Assembly: GCA_008369845.1 (NCBI GenBank)
Contig: MRSU01011155.1
Coordinates: 1-37,069 of the forward strand
Origin: Trichomonas gallinae
Taxonomy: Eukaryota
DNA: 37,069 nt
Direction: 5' to 3'
In this document: piece by piece, positions 7,888 through 14,179 of the stretch
How the letters are laid out: each line of letters begins with the position of its first letter
How positions within the stretch are numbered: position 1 is the stretch's first letter
Program-made: the position numbers and the translations under genes
Notes under the pieces: generated by a model
The model's input: only the letters and a program-made list of their open reading frames with translations
What the model was told of the DNA's origin: nothing
Databases searched by the model: none

Positions 7888-8763
7888 TCATAATTTTATT
7901 TGATATTATTATGCGTAAATATTATTCTATCCATTAATTTTGACCTATATTTTTGTATTAAATCTTTGTATTAATGAATATGAATGTCCATCTTCAAATG
8001 AAAAAAAAAAAAAAATATTTCTAGGCCAGAAATGGACATTGTTATGCACTATGTCATGATCAGCTAGTTATAGACTACATGAATTACAATTGCTAAAATG
8101 TATTTAATGCTCATAACATCTGCAAAAATGATATTTGACACTTTACATTTGAAATTTGATTTTACAAAATCCAAAGATTTTGGGGGTGTCAAAAACCATA
8201 CAATGGAATCGAGATTTTTTTCTAGAATGAAGACTTCTACTTTATGTAGGAGGATGATTTCAGCGGATATCGGATTATTTCCGTGTGCTAAATCAATTAT
8301 TGATGTGTATTTTATCAAATAGTTTATATTCTGCAAAATCTTAATTACATTCAATCAATTTTTTGTAATTTTCATCAAATTATGAAGCAATAATGCATAT
8401 GTATCTCATAATTATCTTATGTGTATGCAAATTATATTTGATTTTAAGCATATTAGACATAAATACAAAATATCACTATTTCAAACATAGGAATTACTTT
8501 ATTTTATAAAATTAGAAAAGCAAGAAAATAGGGAGATTTTACGATGTCAGATTGTCAATAATTTTGAAAAGTGAAAACGAATAAATGACATTGTAAATTT
8601 ACAAATGTCAAAATTTTAATCAAGGGGTGCATCGAAATTTTTTTGAAACTTTCCACATCACTATTATATCACTTCCAACCGGTAAATGCAGTCGAAAATA
8701 TACTTGAAAAGAACTTTAGGAATGAAAAATAAAAGTTTTATGTCAATATTTTCTGCATCACAT

Positions 8764-10743
8764 TTAATTCTGATCACGCGGAACTTTCTTTGTGACCTTC
8801 TTGTAGTACTTCTTTGGCTTCTCTGGTGACTGTGCTCTTGGCTCGTTCTTGTCGTACTTGACAACCTTGCGGATCTTCTTGTCCTTGAGCTCTTCCTCGT
8901 TGAACTGGTCCGCCTTGATGAGCTTGTGGTGTGTTGTCTTAACCTCTTGTGGCTGCTCCTGTGCAACTGGTGTTGCATCGAAGACGTGGATGAAGCACTG
9001 TGTTAGCATTGATGCGAAGTTTGTGCCGAGAAGGCTCTGTCCACGGTCGACGGCTTCGACGTCAGCATATACGAGAGAGAACTTCTGTGGGATGGCGTCA
9101 ATGGCCTTGTGGATGGCCTCGATGGCTCTGGCGAGTGGGTCGGCCTTTGGAACTGGGAACTCTGCTTCCTGGAGTGGGAAGTCTGAGACTGTGACGATGA
9201 ACTCGACGAGCATTGGGTAGATCTTCTTCTGGAGTCTCTTCTCTATGTCAGCCAAGCCCTCGAACTCGCCGTCGATGTTGCCGAGTGAGAAGACGACGTA
9301 GAGGAGTCTGGCGATTGGAAGGAAGTACTCTGGATGCTGGACGTTTGGATTGATCTTCTTGACATGGATGAGAGAGTTGTATATGTATGTCTTGAGGAAG
9401 ATCTCAGCGATGAACTGGTAGATTGTGAGTGTGTTGTTAGCAGTGATGGAAAGGTATGAGCGGGCGATGTTGAAGGCCTGCTTGATTGTGTCTGGGACGA
9501 GGTAGTATGAGTGGGCGATGAACCTGCAGATGTTTGCGACAAGCTTCTCGACGCCCTGGACGTCAACTTCTGGTGTGCCGAGGCCGAAAATGCCCTGCTC
9601 GTCGATGTATGTTGTGAGCTTTGTCATGAAAGTTTGTGTGTATGGGGCGATGAAGAGGTTAACGATGGCGTTGAGTAAGTTCTTGGAGTGTGATGGCTTA
9701 GCGATGAACTCGTTGACCGTGCCCTGAAGGTGAGAAAGGTCGTACAAGAGAACCTGCTCGATGAGAACGTTAGCCTTGCCACCGTACGAGTAAACATGGA
9801 AGAAGGACTCGATGACTGTCTTGGCAACAGTTGAGTCTGGCTGAGAAAGTGTTGGGTTGAGGAGTGTTCTGAGGATGTGAGAATCTGTGTTCATAATGAC
9901 CTGGTAAGCAGCCTGGTAGAGCTGATCTGGGGCTGGTGTTGAGATTGATGTCATGAACTGGAGCATTGGGGCTGGATTCTCGAGAACATTTGCCCAAAGC
10001 TGAACCTGAGCTGGATCTTCTGGAACGAACTTCCAAAGAGCCTTGCCCTTGTTGTCCATAACCTCGACAGAGATCTTATCCTTGCCGATCTGGAAAGCTG
10101 TTGGCTTAACGTTGAATTGTTCCTGCTGTTCGTTGCCCTTGAAGCTGTAGATGTAGAAGATCTTGTTTGCGTCCAAAACGGCCCAGAATCCTGGCTTCTT
10201 GCCCTTCTTGCACCTGCAGATAGCGAGATGTGGATTTGGATTTGGCTTTGTGAAGTTGATTGGGAAGATCTTCTGTGCGATCCACTGAAGAAGGCCTTGT
10301 GGCTGCTTGGCTTGGTGGAGCATCTTGACCAAGAAGAGAGTATAAACATCACAGCCATTGGCTGGTATGGAAGCTGGCCAGTAATTGGCGATGAATTTGA
10401 ATACTTCTGGGTTGATGTTCTGCTTGAGGTAGTCGGCAAAGTCAATAACGGCCTGCGATGGGTTGATAATCAAATCTTGTGGGGCAGCGGCGTTGAATTC
10501 GTTCAAAATTTCCTCGAAACTGTCCTTAAGTGGTCTGCCATGGAATGGGGCTGCTGTCTCGAATGTCTGTGTCTTCAATGATTCGTAAAAATCGGCAGGA
10601 TATTTATTGAACTCGTTAAAAAGCATGTTAGTGTTGACTGTTGAGTAAACAGATGAGTTTACAACTGGTGGTGGTGGAACTTCCTCCTTAATGGTTGGCT
10701 TAGAATCGGCTGGAGCTTGTTTCTTATCCTTCTTTTCTCCCAT
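8764..10743 (-). CDS. Protein with PH-like domain and degenerate RasGAP-like domain
   Basis: 659-aa ORF with strong codon bias. PH-like segment ends WKFVPEDPAQVQLWANVLE; a following helical region resembles RasGAP (EFIAKPSHSKNLL ~ LFRGNSxxSK). CDS is certain; domain calls are inferred. Confidence 0.7.
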   Translation of the reverse strand: MGEKKDKKQAPADSKPTIKEEVPPPPVVNSSVYSTVNTNMLFNEFNKYPADFYESLKTQTFETAAPFHGRPLKDSFEEILNEFNAAAPQDLIINPSQAVIDFADYLKQNINPEVFKFIANYWPASIPANGCDVYTLFLVKMLHQAKQPQGLLQWIAQKIFPINFTKPNPNPHLAICRCKKGKKPGFWAVLDANKIFYIYSFKGNEQQEQFNVKPTAFQIGKDKISVEVMDNKGKALWKFVPEDPAQVQLWANVLENPAPMLQFMTSISTPAPDQLYQAAYQVIMNTDSHILRTLLNPTLSQPDSTVAKTVIESFFHVYSYGGKANVLIEQVLLYDLSHLQGTVNEFIAKPSHSKNLLNAIVNLFIAPYTQTFMTKLTTYIDEQGIFGLGTPEVDVQGVEKLVANICRFIAHSYYLVPDTIKQAFNIARSYLSITANNTLTIYQFIAEIFLKTYIYNSLIHVKKINPNVQHPEYFLPIARLLYVVFSLGNIDGEFEGLADIEKRLQKKIYPMLVEFIVTVSDFPLQEAEFPVPKADPLARAIEAIHKAIDAIPQKFSLVYADVEAVDRGQSLLGTNFASMLTQCFIHVFDATPVAQEQPQEVKTTHHKLIKADQFNEEELKDKKIRKVVKYDKNEPRAQSPEKPKKYYKKVTKKVPRDQN

Positions 10744-11625: not shown

Positions 11626-12006
11626 ATGAGTGCTTGCCCGCAATGTGAACCAGACCCAGTTCCTCATGTAATAGACTTATCAGACGATAGCGACGATTCC
11701 AACTACAAGAGCGATTTATGGGAAGATAAAATAATTGTGCTTCCTCCACAACAGAAATGGGATAAGCCATCTGGAAAAGCTCTCTATGTAACTCAAGTAT
11801 CTATGACAATACCACCTACAGGAAGTGAAGGAACTTTCGGTATTCTCAATGCTGTAATGGCTGAAGGTCTTTACGCAATTTGCAAAATATTCCCTCATCA
11901 ACCAAACCAGCCATTAAATCTTGCATGGAGCCAAAATCAGGAAGTATCCTTCATCAATTCAGGAAATAGACCAATCAGTGTCGCTCTCCTTGTAAAATGC
12001 GATTAA
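11626..12006 (+). CDS. Small nucleoplasmin-like (NPL) domain protein with N-terminal CxxC and acidic SIM-like motif
   Basis: First in-frame ATG at 11626. LYVTQVSM...YAICKIFPHQPNQPLNLAWSQNQEVSFINSGNRPISV resembles the NPL core of FKBP39/HD-tuins. HVIDLSDDSDDS is SIM-like. Confidence 0.65.
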   Translation: MSACPQCEPDPVPHVIDLSDDSDDSNYKSDLWEDKIIVLPPQQKWDKPSGKALYVTQVSMTIPPTGSEGTFGILNAVMAEGLYAICKIFPHQPNQPLNLAWSQNQEVSFINSGNRPISVALLVKCD

Positions 12007-12317
12007 GATTTGTTCGAATACTCAATAAAATGTATGTAAATGTTTTAATTATCTTACATCTATTACATATATTAATATCTTTTAATTTATATGATAAAAA
12101 TATAATGTATTAATAATAGTTTAGGAGCCAAACATTTGGGCATAAAGAGCTGTTTTATTTGCATGCTTAGTTTAAAAAGAAGAAAGTTGAAATTTTAAAA
12201 TTTATGCCAAAATTTAATTTTCTTTAAAGAATGTATGGAAATTACTCCAAAGATTAAAATCATGTAATGGTTTAATAAATGGAATCTATAAAGCAGCGGC
12301 TTTATTGAATAAAAAAT

Positions 12318-12428
12318 CTGTGTGTTAGTTTGTTTTCTAATATTTGTTTGGGTCAGTGTTGCAAGTTTTCCTCATACTTCAGTGAGGTTCTCACAGTATC
12401 ATCAAACCCATTTAAATCGAATACATAC
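12318..12428 (-). other. Spliceosomal intron (trichomonad type, 111 nt)
   Basis: 5' splice site GTATGT at 12428-12423 and the exact 12-nt fused branch point/3' splice site ACTAACACACAG at 12329-12318, same strand, with typical length. Confidence 0.88.
12349..12410 (-). ncRNA. Box C/D snoRNA, intron-encoded (about 62 nt)
   Basis: Minus strand TGGG-TT-TGATGA (C, 12404-12399)-guide-CTGA (D', 12382-12379)-AGT-ATGAGGA (C', 12375-12369)-guide-CTGA (D, 12356-12353)-CCCA. All four boxes are in order, closed by a TGGG/CCCA terminal stem. Confidence 0.85.
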
Positions 12429-13069
12429 TATTCCCAAGATGCCTTGAAAGATTCTGGCTGGACAAAACCGCCAAGATCGTCTTTATCTGTTATCTGACTT
12501 TACATTTGACAATTAGATAATTTACGTGTCATTTTGATATATTTCTTGTTTTTTGACAGTTTACAATTCATTATTTTTGTCAATTTGACTGTTTACATCA
12601 TAGATATTTTTGCCACAATGATAGTTTACAAAAAACAGTGCATGGAAAAATTAAAATTCGTTTAGAATTTACAGCGAACAATTTGATTTTATGTAAATTC
12701 TCTGAGTAGAAAAAATCAAACGCATTCAGTTATATTAACAGAAATACACGGACCATTCATCACAAAAAAAAAATTCCAGTTACGGCGAAAATTTTACTCA
12801 TTTTCTCAGCTGCCGTTATATTTGTTGTGAGTTACAGATTAGAAATATTAGCTCAAAAACAGAAAATCTATAAATGGTCAGAATGAAGCAAAAAAATGCC
12901 GCAAAACAGATTTTTTTGGAATTGCTTGCTGGCCCTCTAAACTACTGTGAATGAATTTAAAAGACCGAGTATTAAATAAGTTAACGGATTATTATTGTTT
13001 TTTGCTCTCAATTTTCGCGGGTTCATTTGAAATTTTGAGAGGGTCTGTTTGATGCTCTAACTGTGTCTA

Positions 13070-14179
13070 ATGGCGATGAGGAGACCCGTATCCCAAGAGT
13101 ACCACAGCTCACTGGTTTTTGACGCTTTGGAGTGTCATTCTGACCCAAAGGACCTTATATCTTCAATCTTAAACCAGGATGTTAGCGATATGCCTAACAA
13201 TGAAGATATGCTGTGGAAAAGACTATACGATCTTACGTATCATGGTGGGAAAAGGATGAGAATAATCCAAAGACCCACTTTTACGGACATCGATTCGATA
13301 GTAAAGTGCATAGACGAAGCTTCTAAAATTGTTGTAATTTTAGGAGCGGGAGGAAGCGTAGGACCCGACTTTCGTTCGCCCGGAGGACTCTATGACTCCA
13401 TTGCGAAGGAAGGTGTCTTTGATGATCCTTGCCAAGTCTTTGATTTGGACTCCTTTATGGATGATCCATCTATTTTCTGGAAATTTGCGCATACGATCTT
13501 TCCAGAAAGATATCCTAGGCACTCTCAAGCGCATTATTTCTTGGAAAACCTTGAAAAGCGCGGAAAATTGCTCAGATTGTATTCTCAGAACGTCGACGCG
13601 CTCGATGTAGGTATAAAACCGGAGCATTTGAGGTGTGTTCACGGATCGTGGAGGGAGTCGCACTGCATGAACTGCGATGCCCTTCATTCAATTGAAGATA
13701 TTAGAGAGTATGTAGAGAGAGGAGAAATCCCGAAGTGTATATTCTGCGGTGGCAATATAAAGCCCGGCATTGTTTTCTTTGGTCAATCGGTGAATCTGAA
13801 TGACTTCGAATTAGAAAACGACGCCAGAGAAGCCGATCTATTGCTGGTTATCGGAACTTCTCTCAGCGTGGCACCTGTTTCAGAGATTCCTAAGATGATG
13901 AAACACGTTCCTTCCATATTAATTAATAGAGCGACTGTCAAACCTCGTTTTTCCGCGGAGCTACTTGGTGAGTGCGATGATGTTGTCGATTTCATTGAGG
14001 CGATGCTTGGTTGGTCTTCCGAAGACAAGAAGATTGTGGACATTAATGCAATCACGAAATTCAAGTCCAATAAGTTCATTTTCCCTTCCGAATCTCCGTT
14101 TGCAACAAGAGTGATCCCAACCACGCTCACAAACTTCCTTGCTACGTCCGTACCTGTTGATGTCGATGACCTCGCATGA
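13070..14179 (+). CDS. Sir2-family NAD-dependent deacetylase (class I-like sirtuin)
   Basis: GAGGS..PDFRS, SQNVD, HGSW (catalytic His), CMNC/CIFC zinc site, KPGIVFFGQ, GTSLSVAP, INR. Confidence 0.95.
   Translation: MAMRRPVSQEYHSSLVFDALECHSDPKDLISSILNQDVSDMPNNEDMLWKRLYDLTYHGGKRMRIIQRPTFTDIDSIVKCIDEASKIVVILGAGGSVGPDFRSPGGLYDSIAKEGVFDDPCQVFDLDSFMDDPSIFWKFAHTIFPERYPRHSQAHYFLENLEKRGKLLRLYSQNVDALDVGIKPEHLRCVHGSWRESHCMNCDALHSIEDIREYVERGEIPKCIFCGGNIKPGIVFFGQSVNLNDFELENDAREADLLLVIGTSLSVAPVSEIPKMMKHVPSILINRATVKPRFSAELLGECDDVVDFIEAMLGWSSEDKKIVDINAITKFKSNKFIFPSESPFATRVIPTTLTNFLATSVPVDVDDLA

What the first reader, a model, noticed from the sequence alone, without database searches (positions are those of the whole stretch)
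12318..12428. Box C/D snoRNA nested in a canonical spliceosomal intron in 'intergenic' DNA
Seen: a minus-strand GTATGT...ACTAACACACAG intron of 111 nt whose middle 62 nt carry C (UGAUGA), D' (CUGA), C' (AUGAGGA) and D (CUGA) boxes with a closing UGGG/CCCA stem, ending about 24 nt before the branch A (12325). Known: T. vaginalis has only tens of confirmed introns, nearly all in protein genes, and intronic snoRNAs are typical of animals, plants and fungi. Inference: this is splicing-dependent snoRNA biogenesis in an extremely intron-poor parabasalid, and the snoRNA may be why the intron is retained. I do not recall such an arrangement described for Trichomonas, but cannot verify novelty. By the +5 rule, predicted targets are the bracketed G in GAG[G]UUCUCACAG (D' guide) and GUU[G]CAAGUUU (D guide); I could not place them in rRNA from memory.
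Basis: partly seen in the sequence, partly recalled or inferred. Interest (0 to 1): 0.92.

Follow-up and report, generated by a model that had tools for sequence, protein, structure and literature searches.

The report
Trichomonad orphan introns deliver snoRNAs
Between two genes of a trichomonad parasite sits a 111-base intron with no protein gene around it, whose middle is a small guide RNA predicted to mark ribosomal RNA; most of the long 'inactive' introns published for Trichomonas vaginalis show the same design, so these orphan introns are likely working sources of such guide RNAs.

Summary
Confirmed. Minus strand 12428-12318 is a perfect type A trichomonad intron holding a complete box C/D cassette (strict pattern in 0 of 20,000 shuffles). 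The organism is a T. vaginalis relative (81% and 62% protein identity). The host looks like a stand-alone non-coding mini-gene. The D' guide fits the large-subunit rRNA site served by U79/snoR44; trichomonad rRNA itself was not obtained. The D guide is unplaced and not conserved. Main result: homologs lie in the published list of 'inactive' introns (PMC12316389 S3). By eye, 17 of 18 canonical long T. vaginalis entries and 16 of 17 T. stableri entries carry C/D cassettes, many with guides matching conserved rRNA. The authors left them as remnants or stage-specific genes. Splicing, a stable RNA and methylation are not shown. Novelty is partial: a 2008 paper mentions T. vaginalis 'intronic snoRNAs' as unpublished data, a 2011 paper calls them highly unlikely, and a 2012 snoRNA paper could not be read. 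The scan had not noted this on other DNA.

The parts
12318..12428 (-). Type A trichomonad spliceosomal intron, 111 nt
   Evidence: Sequence; motifs and length range as in PMC12316389
12422..12428 (-). 5' splice site GTATGTA
   Evidence: same 7-mer in 35 S3 rows
12318..12329 (-). Fused branch site and 3' splice site ACTAACACACAG; branch A at 12325
   Evidence: same 12-mer in 34 S3 rows
12349..12410 (-). Predicted box C/D snoRNA, 62 nt, closed by a UGGG/CCCA stem
12399..12405 (-). Box C, UUGAUGA (first base U rather than a purine)
12383..12398 (-). D' guide; the 11-12 bases next to box D' pair with the U79/snoR44 site of large-subunit rRNA; +5 base predicted to be a G at Rfam model position 2332
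   Evidence: 11-nt core identical in T. vaginalis S3 row 1 and T. stableri row 12
12379..12382 (-). Box D', CUGA
12369..12375 (-). Box C', AUGAGGA
   Evidence: identical in both homologs
12357..12368 (-). D guide region, no target placed, probably idle or lineage-specific
   Evidence: only its first six bases are shared with the homologs
12353..12356 (-). Box D, CUGA (CAGA in the two homologs)
12429..12451 (-). Predicted exon 1 of a non-coding host, about 23 nt, starting at an m5-like TCTTT (12451-12447; one mismatch to CCTTT)
   Evidence: m5 motif from PMC7370421; start site inferred
12466..12471 (-). M3-like promoter element GCGGTT, 20 nt upstream of the m5-like element
   Evidence: only such pair in the window; 4 of 5,000 local shuffles but about 1 per shuffled window; M3 consensus recalled, from no call
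12260..12317 (-). Predicted short exon 2 with TAAA polyadenylation signals at 12304-12301 and 12274-12271; end inferred
   Evidence: UAAA 10-30 nt before transcript ends in PMC13548475
11626..12006 (+). Neighbour, convergent: 126-aa gene, nucleoplasmin-like by feature search
13070..14179 (+). Neighbour, divergent: Sir2-family gene

Best explanation
This is a box C/D snoRNA cassette inside a canonical trichomonad intron, likely carried by a tiny stand-alone non-coding gene whose only product is the snoRNA, likely released by splicing, debranching and trimming, and predicted to guide 2'-O-methylation of large-subunit rRNA at the U79/snoR44 site. Steps: (1) inferred: Pol II starts near 12451 and makes a precursor of under 200 nt; (2) inferred from perfect, conserved signals: the spliceosome removes the 111-nt intron; (3) inferred from other eukaryotes: C/D proteins bind the boxes, the lariat is debranched, and exonucleases trim about 18 nt from the 5' side and about 31 nt from the 3' side to the stem; (4) predicted: the D' guide directs methylation of the G at Rfam LSU position 2332; (5) inferred: the joined exons, about 50-80 nt with no reading frame, are lost or degraded, which is why RNA-seq pipelines call such introns inactive. 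Shown: the anatomy, its conservation in two other Trichomonas species, and the recurrence of the design in the published orphan introns.
For: Cassette and intron far above chance. Homologs T. vaginalis chr_I:197323-197429 and T. stableri scaffold2:14329091-14329198 share 30 of 31 bases across D' guide core, D', C' and the next six bases, plus the GGG/CCC stem and both splice motifs, while spacers differ; the T. vaginalis copy has the same 24-nt distance from 5' splice site to box C (compared by eye). Class: by eye 17 of 18 canonical long T. vaginalis S3 rows and 16 of 17 T. stableri rows carry C, D', C', D and a terminal stem (rows 7 and 14 are partial). Six T. vaginalis D' guides, picked by eye, scanned on one fetched rDNA: five pair 10-11 bases at conserved rRNA sites, reached by 2-10 of 300 shuffled guides each. 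D' guide aligns in register with SNORD79 and sn2429 guides; 11-12 contiguous pairs with a natural LSU variant in 11 of 11 fetched contigs, mapped to model position 2332; U79 uses its D' guide at this site and is intronic in Neurospora and chicken. No ATG frame crosses the junction, and both neighbours lie on the other strand. A 173-nt contig of a related organism holds the intron with 9 substitutions and one insertion that, by my reading, lengthens the stem. PMC2588526 mentions T. vaginalis intronic snoRNAs lacking TMG caps.
Against: The published homologs were not validated by RNA-seq: T. vaginalis row 1 'No RNAseq evidence', T. stableri row 12 'Not assembled, Low coverage'; 14 of the 18 T. 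vaginalis rows have no RNA-seq evidence. The LSU contigs were found with a pattern built from the guide, so their match is by construction and none is shown to be trichomonad; the Rfam consensus at that site mispairs with the guide at two positions, the +5 base among them. SNORD79 score 20.9 bits against a gathering score of 47. The D guide has no target. One of the six test guides did no better than 35 of 300 shuffles. The snoRNA sits closer to both splice sites than usual (Neurospora mostly 41-60 nt from the 5' site; a vertebrate optimum near 50 nt before the branch point is recalled). Flanking genes map to different T. vaginalis contigs (26.1 and 34.7 Mb), so orthology by synteny is not shown. 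No control was possible on validated coding introns, whose sequences are not in S2.
Confidence: 0.75

Rival explanations
1. The snoRNA is real but the splice signals serve end-processing without exon joining: the spliceosome performs only the first step, or U1/U2 binding marks the ends, and no spliced host RNA is ever made.
For: Published homologs and most class members lack junction evidence; predicted exon 1 is only about 23 nt; spacing to the branch point is short. First-step-only cleavage is known for fission yeast telomerase RNA (recalled).
Against: The terminal AG is kept in all 35 long canonical S3 rows, which step two needs; 9 of 17 T. stableri rows are labelled 'Not assembled, Low coverage' as distinct from 'No SJ reads', a label the main text does not define; short spliced products would be missed by 70-nt read trimming and transcript assembly.
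Confidence: 0.12
2. The snoRNA is transcribed and trimmed independently of splicing; the intron signals are leftovers of a decayed protein gene, as the 2025 authors suggest for the inactive introns.
For: A promoter-like pair lies just upstream; PMC12316389 proposes remnants or stage-specific genes.
Against: Splice motifs are intact in all 35 rows of at least 13 unrelated snoRNA families while nearby spacer bases drift; remnants should decay. No reading frame surrounds this intron.
Confidence: 0.06
3. The intron belongs to a very small or mis-started protein gene, or to a long untranslated region of a neighbour, and the snoRNA is an ordinary passenger in a coding host.
For: An open frame of about 22 codons without ATG ends exactly at the junction; 7 of 17 T. 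stableri rows overlap annotated gene models.
Against: No ATG frame crosses the junction and no short type B intron that could supply a start was found; both neighbours are on the + strand and the nearest minus-strand genes lie beyond them.
Confidence: 0.05
4. The boxes are a chance arrangement in a real or dead intron.
For: No Rfam hit at gathering score; box motifs are short.
Against: 0 of 20,000 shuffles; boxes and guide conserved in two other species; recurrence in 33 of 35 rows.
Confidence: 0.02

Closest known systems
U79 / SNORD79 (Rfam RF00152), plant snoR44 (RF00357), Neurospora Nc CD14
   Same: D' guide in the same register, same large-subunit rRNA site, intron-encoded; chicken U79 counterpart lies in intron 9 of a gas5-like non-coding host.
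   Different: Predicted target base is G, not A; 62 nt against about 75-95; far below the Rfam gathering score; single-intron host.
Non-coding snoRNA host genes (UHG, GAS5; Neurospora snoRNA clusters I-V)
   Same: Exons without coding potential, snoRNA in the intron, pyrimidine-rich start (passages read).
   Different: Here one intron and one snoRNA per mini-gene of under 200 nt, snoRNA 18 nt from the 5' splice site and 31 nt from the 3' site, in a lineage with only about 50-80 validated introns.
Orphan T. vaginalis introns: 22 of 41 fragments of Vanacova et al. 2005 found only in intergenic DNA (as reported in PMC6260720), and the 34 'inactive' introns of PMC12316389
   Same: Same motifs, length and intergenic position; S3 rows Tv 1 and Ts 12 are homologs of this locus.
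   Different: Neither paper reads them as snoRNA hosts: 'snoRNA' occurs 0 times in the main text of PMC12316389, PMC6260720, PMC13548475 and PMC6679479; PMC12316389 makes one general remark on small nucleolar RNA genes in 5' UTR introns. Whether the 22 fragments are the same loci as the S3 rows was not checked.
T. vaginalis C/D snoRNAs of Chen et al. 2009 (PMC2817412) and the 'intronic snoRNAs' mentioned in PMC2588526
   Same: C/D snoRNAs in Trichomonas; the 2008 remark shows that one laboratory knew of intronic ones.
   Different: [quoted passage not shown]

Membership tests
Box C/D guide snoRNA | Box C near the 5' end, box D near the 3' end, closing stem | tested here: met
Box C/D guide snoRNA | Internal D' and C' boxes in order | tested here: met
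   conserved in homologs
Box C/D guide snoRNA | 10 or more bases antisense to the organism's own rRNA just before D or D' | tested here: inconclusive
   11-12 pairs with LSU of other eukaryotes found by a guide-derived pattern; own rRNA not available
Box C/D guide snoRNA | Stable small RNA bound by Snu13/fibrillarin; methylation at the +5 base | not testable with these tools
   needs northern, co-IP, RiboMeth-seq
SNORD79/U79 (RF00152) | D' guide against the LSU site at human about 3810, Arabidopsis 2317 | tested here: met
   register; position; site table in PMC3511168 supplement
SNORD79/U79 (RF00152) | Rfam gathering score 47 | tested here: not met
   20.9 bits, E 1.9; filed as working like U79, not as a member
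SNORD79/U79 (RF00152) | Target nucleotide is adenosine | tested here: not met
   guide +5 base is C, so the target would be G
Trichomonas type A intron | Conserved 7-nt 5' motif; 12-nt fused branch and 3' motif; 56-196 nt | tested here: met
Trichomonas type A intron | Removed by splicing | tested here: inconclusive
   only assembled contigs of related organisms were available
Non-coding snoRNA host gene (UHG/GAS5 kind) | Exons without a reading frame | tested here: met
Non-coding snoRNA host gene (UHG/GAS5 kind) | Several snoRNA-bearing introns in one host | tested here: not met
   one intron only in the window
Non-coding snoRNA host gene (UHG/GAS5 kind) | 5' terminal oligopyrimidine start | tested here: inconclusive
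   predicted start TCTTT at 12451; start site not mapped

The most novel reading that the evidence does not exclude
Trichomonads make much of their box C/D snoRNA set from dedicated one-intron non-coding mini-genes. About 18 such introns stand beside 39 validated long introns in T. vaginalis, roughly a third of its long introns, so the 'intergenic' or 'inactive' introns set aside since 2005 are functional, and ribosome biogenesis gives this intron-poor parasite a standing reason to keep its spliceosome.
Probability: 0.6. Interest if true: 0.85.

Novelty: new variant of a known kind. Interest (0 to 1): 0.72.

Why it matters
It offers a concrete, testable answer to a 20-year-old loose end: what the perfect but gene-less introns of T. 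vaginalis are for. [quoted passage not shown] It extends non-coding snoRNA host genes to metamonads, bears on why intron-poor genomes keep splicing, and shows a very compact intron-snoRNA geometry. It also warns that poly(A) RNA-seq pipelines misclassify such introns as inactive.

Tried and rejected
Whole-genome scan: no genome is held for this window. Sequencing runs: no RNA holder listed; the four runs laid are contigs of related organisms or metagenomes, no joint at 12429/12317 was listed, and the two metatranscriptomes had no cover there; this says nothing on expression or splicing. The places of the nine substitutions in the related contig were not shown and remain unseen. Trichomonad rRNA could not be obtained: the 11 metagenome contigs are LSU-like (Rfam confirmed for 1 of 11, L007) but none was shown to be parabasalid; no rRNA string in the PMC3228867 supplement; a literature search for the guide and target strings listed only unrelated papers (20 of 23 shown). 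The conserved snoRNA core has 0 matches in viral and prokaryotic contigs, as expected. D-guide target: best 8-pair matches in L008, no better than shuffles; a 5.8S or 18S helix-18 target was considered and could not be supported. A small protein made with a second upstream intron was rejected: no branch motif, no type B match. UTR intron of a neighbour rejected on strand and distance. Synteny with T. vaginalis not shown. Not readable: Simoes-Barbosa 2012 (RNA 18:1656), Simoes-Barbosa 2008 (RNA 14:1617), Smith 2011; the PMC2817412 supplement.

Full report
Observation. It is the only intron-pattern match and the only full cassette in 37 kb. A strict cassette pattern occurred in 0 of 20,000 shuffles of the intron core, a loose one in 44 of 20,000; 300 shuffled windows gave 3 intron matches and 2 strict cassettes in all. 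The patterns were drawn after seeing the sequence, so these figures flatter the case, but the two rare features are nested. Rfam gives nothing at gathering score; below it, 5 of 7 matches are C/D families on this stretch.

Organism and setting. No whole genome is held. None of 7 window proteins is in the protein collection by exact sequence; the Sir2 neighbour is 81% identical to T. vaginalis G3 EAY14305 and the 126-aa neighbour 62% to TVAG_076570. So this is a trichomonad related to T. vaginalis. The intron lies in a 1.06-kb gap between two plus-strand genes, so it is not in their transcripts' sense. No ATG frame crosses the junction. An m5-like TCTTT at 12451 (m5 = CCTTT in PMC7370421, passages read) and an M3-like GCGGTT 20 nt above it (consensus recalled) form the only such pair in the window; 4 of 5,000 shuffles of the upstream 100 nt hold it, but about one is expected per whole window, so it is suggestive only. 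TAAA signals lie 14 and 44 nt into exon 2; UAAA is enriched 10-30 nt before transcript ends (PMC13548475, passages read). The inferred host is a non-coding unit of under 200 nt whose spliced product is about 50-80 nt.

Target. The D' guide aligns in register with the guides of SNORD79 and sn2429. I searched metagenome contigs with the predicted target set in recalled conserved flanks and got 11 loci. All 11 read as the same large-subunit rRNA region and pair 11-12 contiguous bases with the guide, then mismatch once; Rfam confirms L007 as eukaryotic LSU and puts the +5 base at model position 2332, where the consensus has A and these variants G. This match is by construction and none of the contigs is shown to be trichomonad; it shows that the variant exists at that site in nature. 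U79 acts there through its D' guide: Neurospora CD14, intronic, Am2288 (PMC2780460, passages); chicken GGgCD51, intron 9 of a gas5-like RNA, 11 nt before the U74/snR64 site (PMC2653536, passages); human about 3810 and Arabidopsis 2317, with no T. vaginalis entry (PMC3511168 supplement row). The D guide found no site better than shuffled guides (103 of 300).

Relatives. One run of a related organism (RNA only by guess) has a 173-nt contig over 12261-12431 with 9 substitutions and one inserted base outside the boxes. The decisive evidence came from the S3 table of PMC12316389 (read whole), which lists 34 T. vaginalis and 20 T. stableri introns not validated by RNA-seq. T. vaginalis row 1 and T. 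stableri row 12 share with this locus 30 of 31 bases from the D' guide core through D' and C', the stem and both splice motifs; the spacers, the outer D' guide and most of the D guide differ. That is the pattern of selection on a snoRNA and on splicing together. The flanking genes are not on one T. vaginalis contig, so I call these homologs, not proven orthologs.

The class. Of the 20 type A rows for T. vaginalis, 18 have the canonical motifs and are 100-135 nt; the other two lack them and overlap coding genes. T. stableri has 17 long rows. Motif counts agree (35 and 34). Reading these 35 by eye, 33 have a box C variant (GA-N-GA core; GG-N-GA in four rows with long outer stems), an internal D', a box D (CTGA, CCGA or CAGA) and a flanking stem, with C' clear in most and degenerate in a few; T. 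vaginalis row 7 and T. stableri row 14 lack a clear box D. Box D ends about 24-40 nt before the branch A in the rows I counted. Six D' guides chosen by eye were scanned against the rDNA of L008: rows 2, 8, 15, 17 and 18 pair 10-11 bases at conserved sites (2-10 of 300 shuffles each); row 11 did not stand out (35 of 300). By eye, T. stableri rows 4, 7 and 11 pair 12-13 bases with conserved LSU stretches in L001. Several guides (rows 3, 4, 5, 14) I could not place. The choice of six was not blind, and no control on ordinary introns was possible (one search has no sequences).

Mechanism. The most likely route is the one known for intronic C/D snoRNAs elsewhere: splicing, debranching, trimming to the protein-protected stem. 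Every step after the anatomy is inferred. The lack of RNA-seq support in print is expected if the joined exons are 50-80 nt: reads were trimmed to at least 70 nt and introns were counted from assembled transcripts (a default minimum transcript length of 200 in StringTie is recalled). It is also what first-step-only processing would give, which is the main rival.

What is known. Chen, Penny and Collins 2011 call intronic snoRNAs highly unlikely in Giardia and Trichomonas (PMC3228867, parts 1-2 of 5 read). Wang et al. 2018 set aside 22 of 41 predicted introns as intergenic (PMC6260720, passages). The 2025 paper leaves its 34 and 20 as remnants or stage-specific genes (sections 9-10 read), and the 2026 long-read paper re-examined the 63 active loci only (section 24). 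Against novelty, Simoes-Barbosa et al. 2008 write of T. vaginalis 'intronic snoRNAs' as unpublished data (PMC2588526, passages), and the same group's 2012 snoRNA paper, their 2008 RNA paper and Vanacova 2005 were not seen. Searches for Trichomonas with snoRNA and intron terms (30 of 62 listed, 8 of 8, 6 of 6, 30 of 179, 2 of 2) showed no paper that links the orphan introns to snoRNAs; the library lacks most subscription papers, and the PMC2817412 supplement could not be searched. Earlier notes of this scan hold nothing on this genome or sequence and only analogues in other lineages.

Verdict. Real feature; works like U79 in a GAS5-like host but is not filed as an Rfam SNORD79 member; a new variant of a known kind by its one-intron mini-host and tight geometry. 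Its weight lies in what it says about a whole published set of supposedly inactive introns. Interest 0.72.

Noticed in passing
PMC12316389 S2 table rows 6, 15, 24: Three validated type A UTR introns of 100-102 nt (two Prp18 paralogs, Lsm3 3' UTR) fall in the length range of the snoRNA introns and may be spliced hosts of the same kind; sequences were not in the table.
   Followed up: no
PMC12316389 S3 table, T. vaginalis row 17 (and partial row 7): The D' guide pairs 10 bases with the sarcin-ricin loop of large-subunit rRNA in 5 of 5 loci tested; a guide to this loop would be unusual if real.
   Followed up: partly
PMC12316389 S3 table, T. stableri rows 4, 7, 11, 13: Three snoRNA families listed for T. 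stableri have no counterpart among the T. vaginalis inactive rows, so the T. vaginalis set is probably incomplete.
   Followed up: partly
window 11626-12006 (+): 126-aa gene without a Pfam hit that resembles nucleoplasmin-like domains (feature score 0.94 to a mostly parabasalid cluster, PF17800 in 49% of members); a possibly nucleolar protein next to the snoRNA gene.
   Followed up: partly
window 12480-12620, also 8000-8200 and 8526-8640: Intergenic clusters of TGTCA/TGACA and TGTAAA words; the 8526-8640 stretch is matched by many contigs of run X1, as a multicopy element would be.
   Followed up: partly
window 12787-13069: A contig of run X2 extends 283 nt upstream of the first ATG of the Sir2 gene, long for a trichomonad leader if it is RNA.
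   Followed up: no
L008 (whole), L004, L007, L009: A group of related, divergent protist rDNA contigs; L008 holds a near-complete, GC-rich rDNA unit followed by repeated tRNA-like stretches.
   Followed up: no
window 8764-10743 (-): 659-aa gene of higher GC with no Pfam hit, covered by contigs in runs X2 and X4.
   Followed up: no
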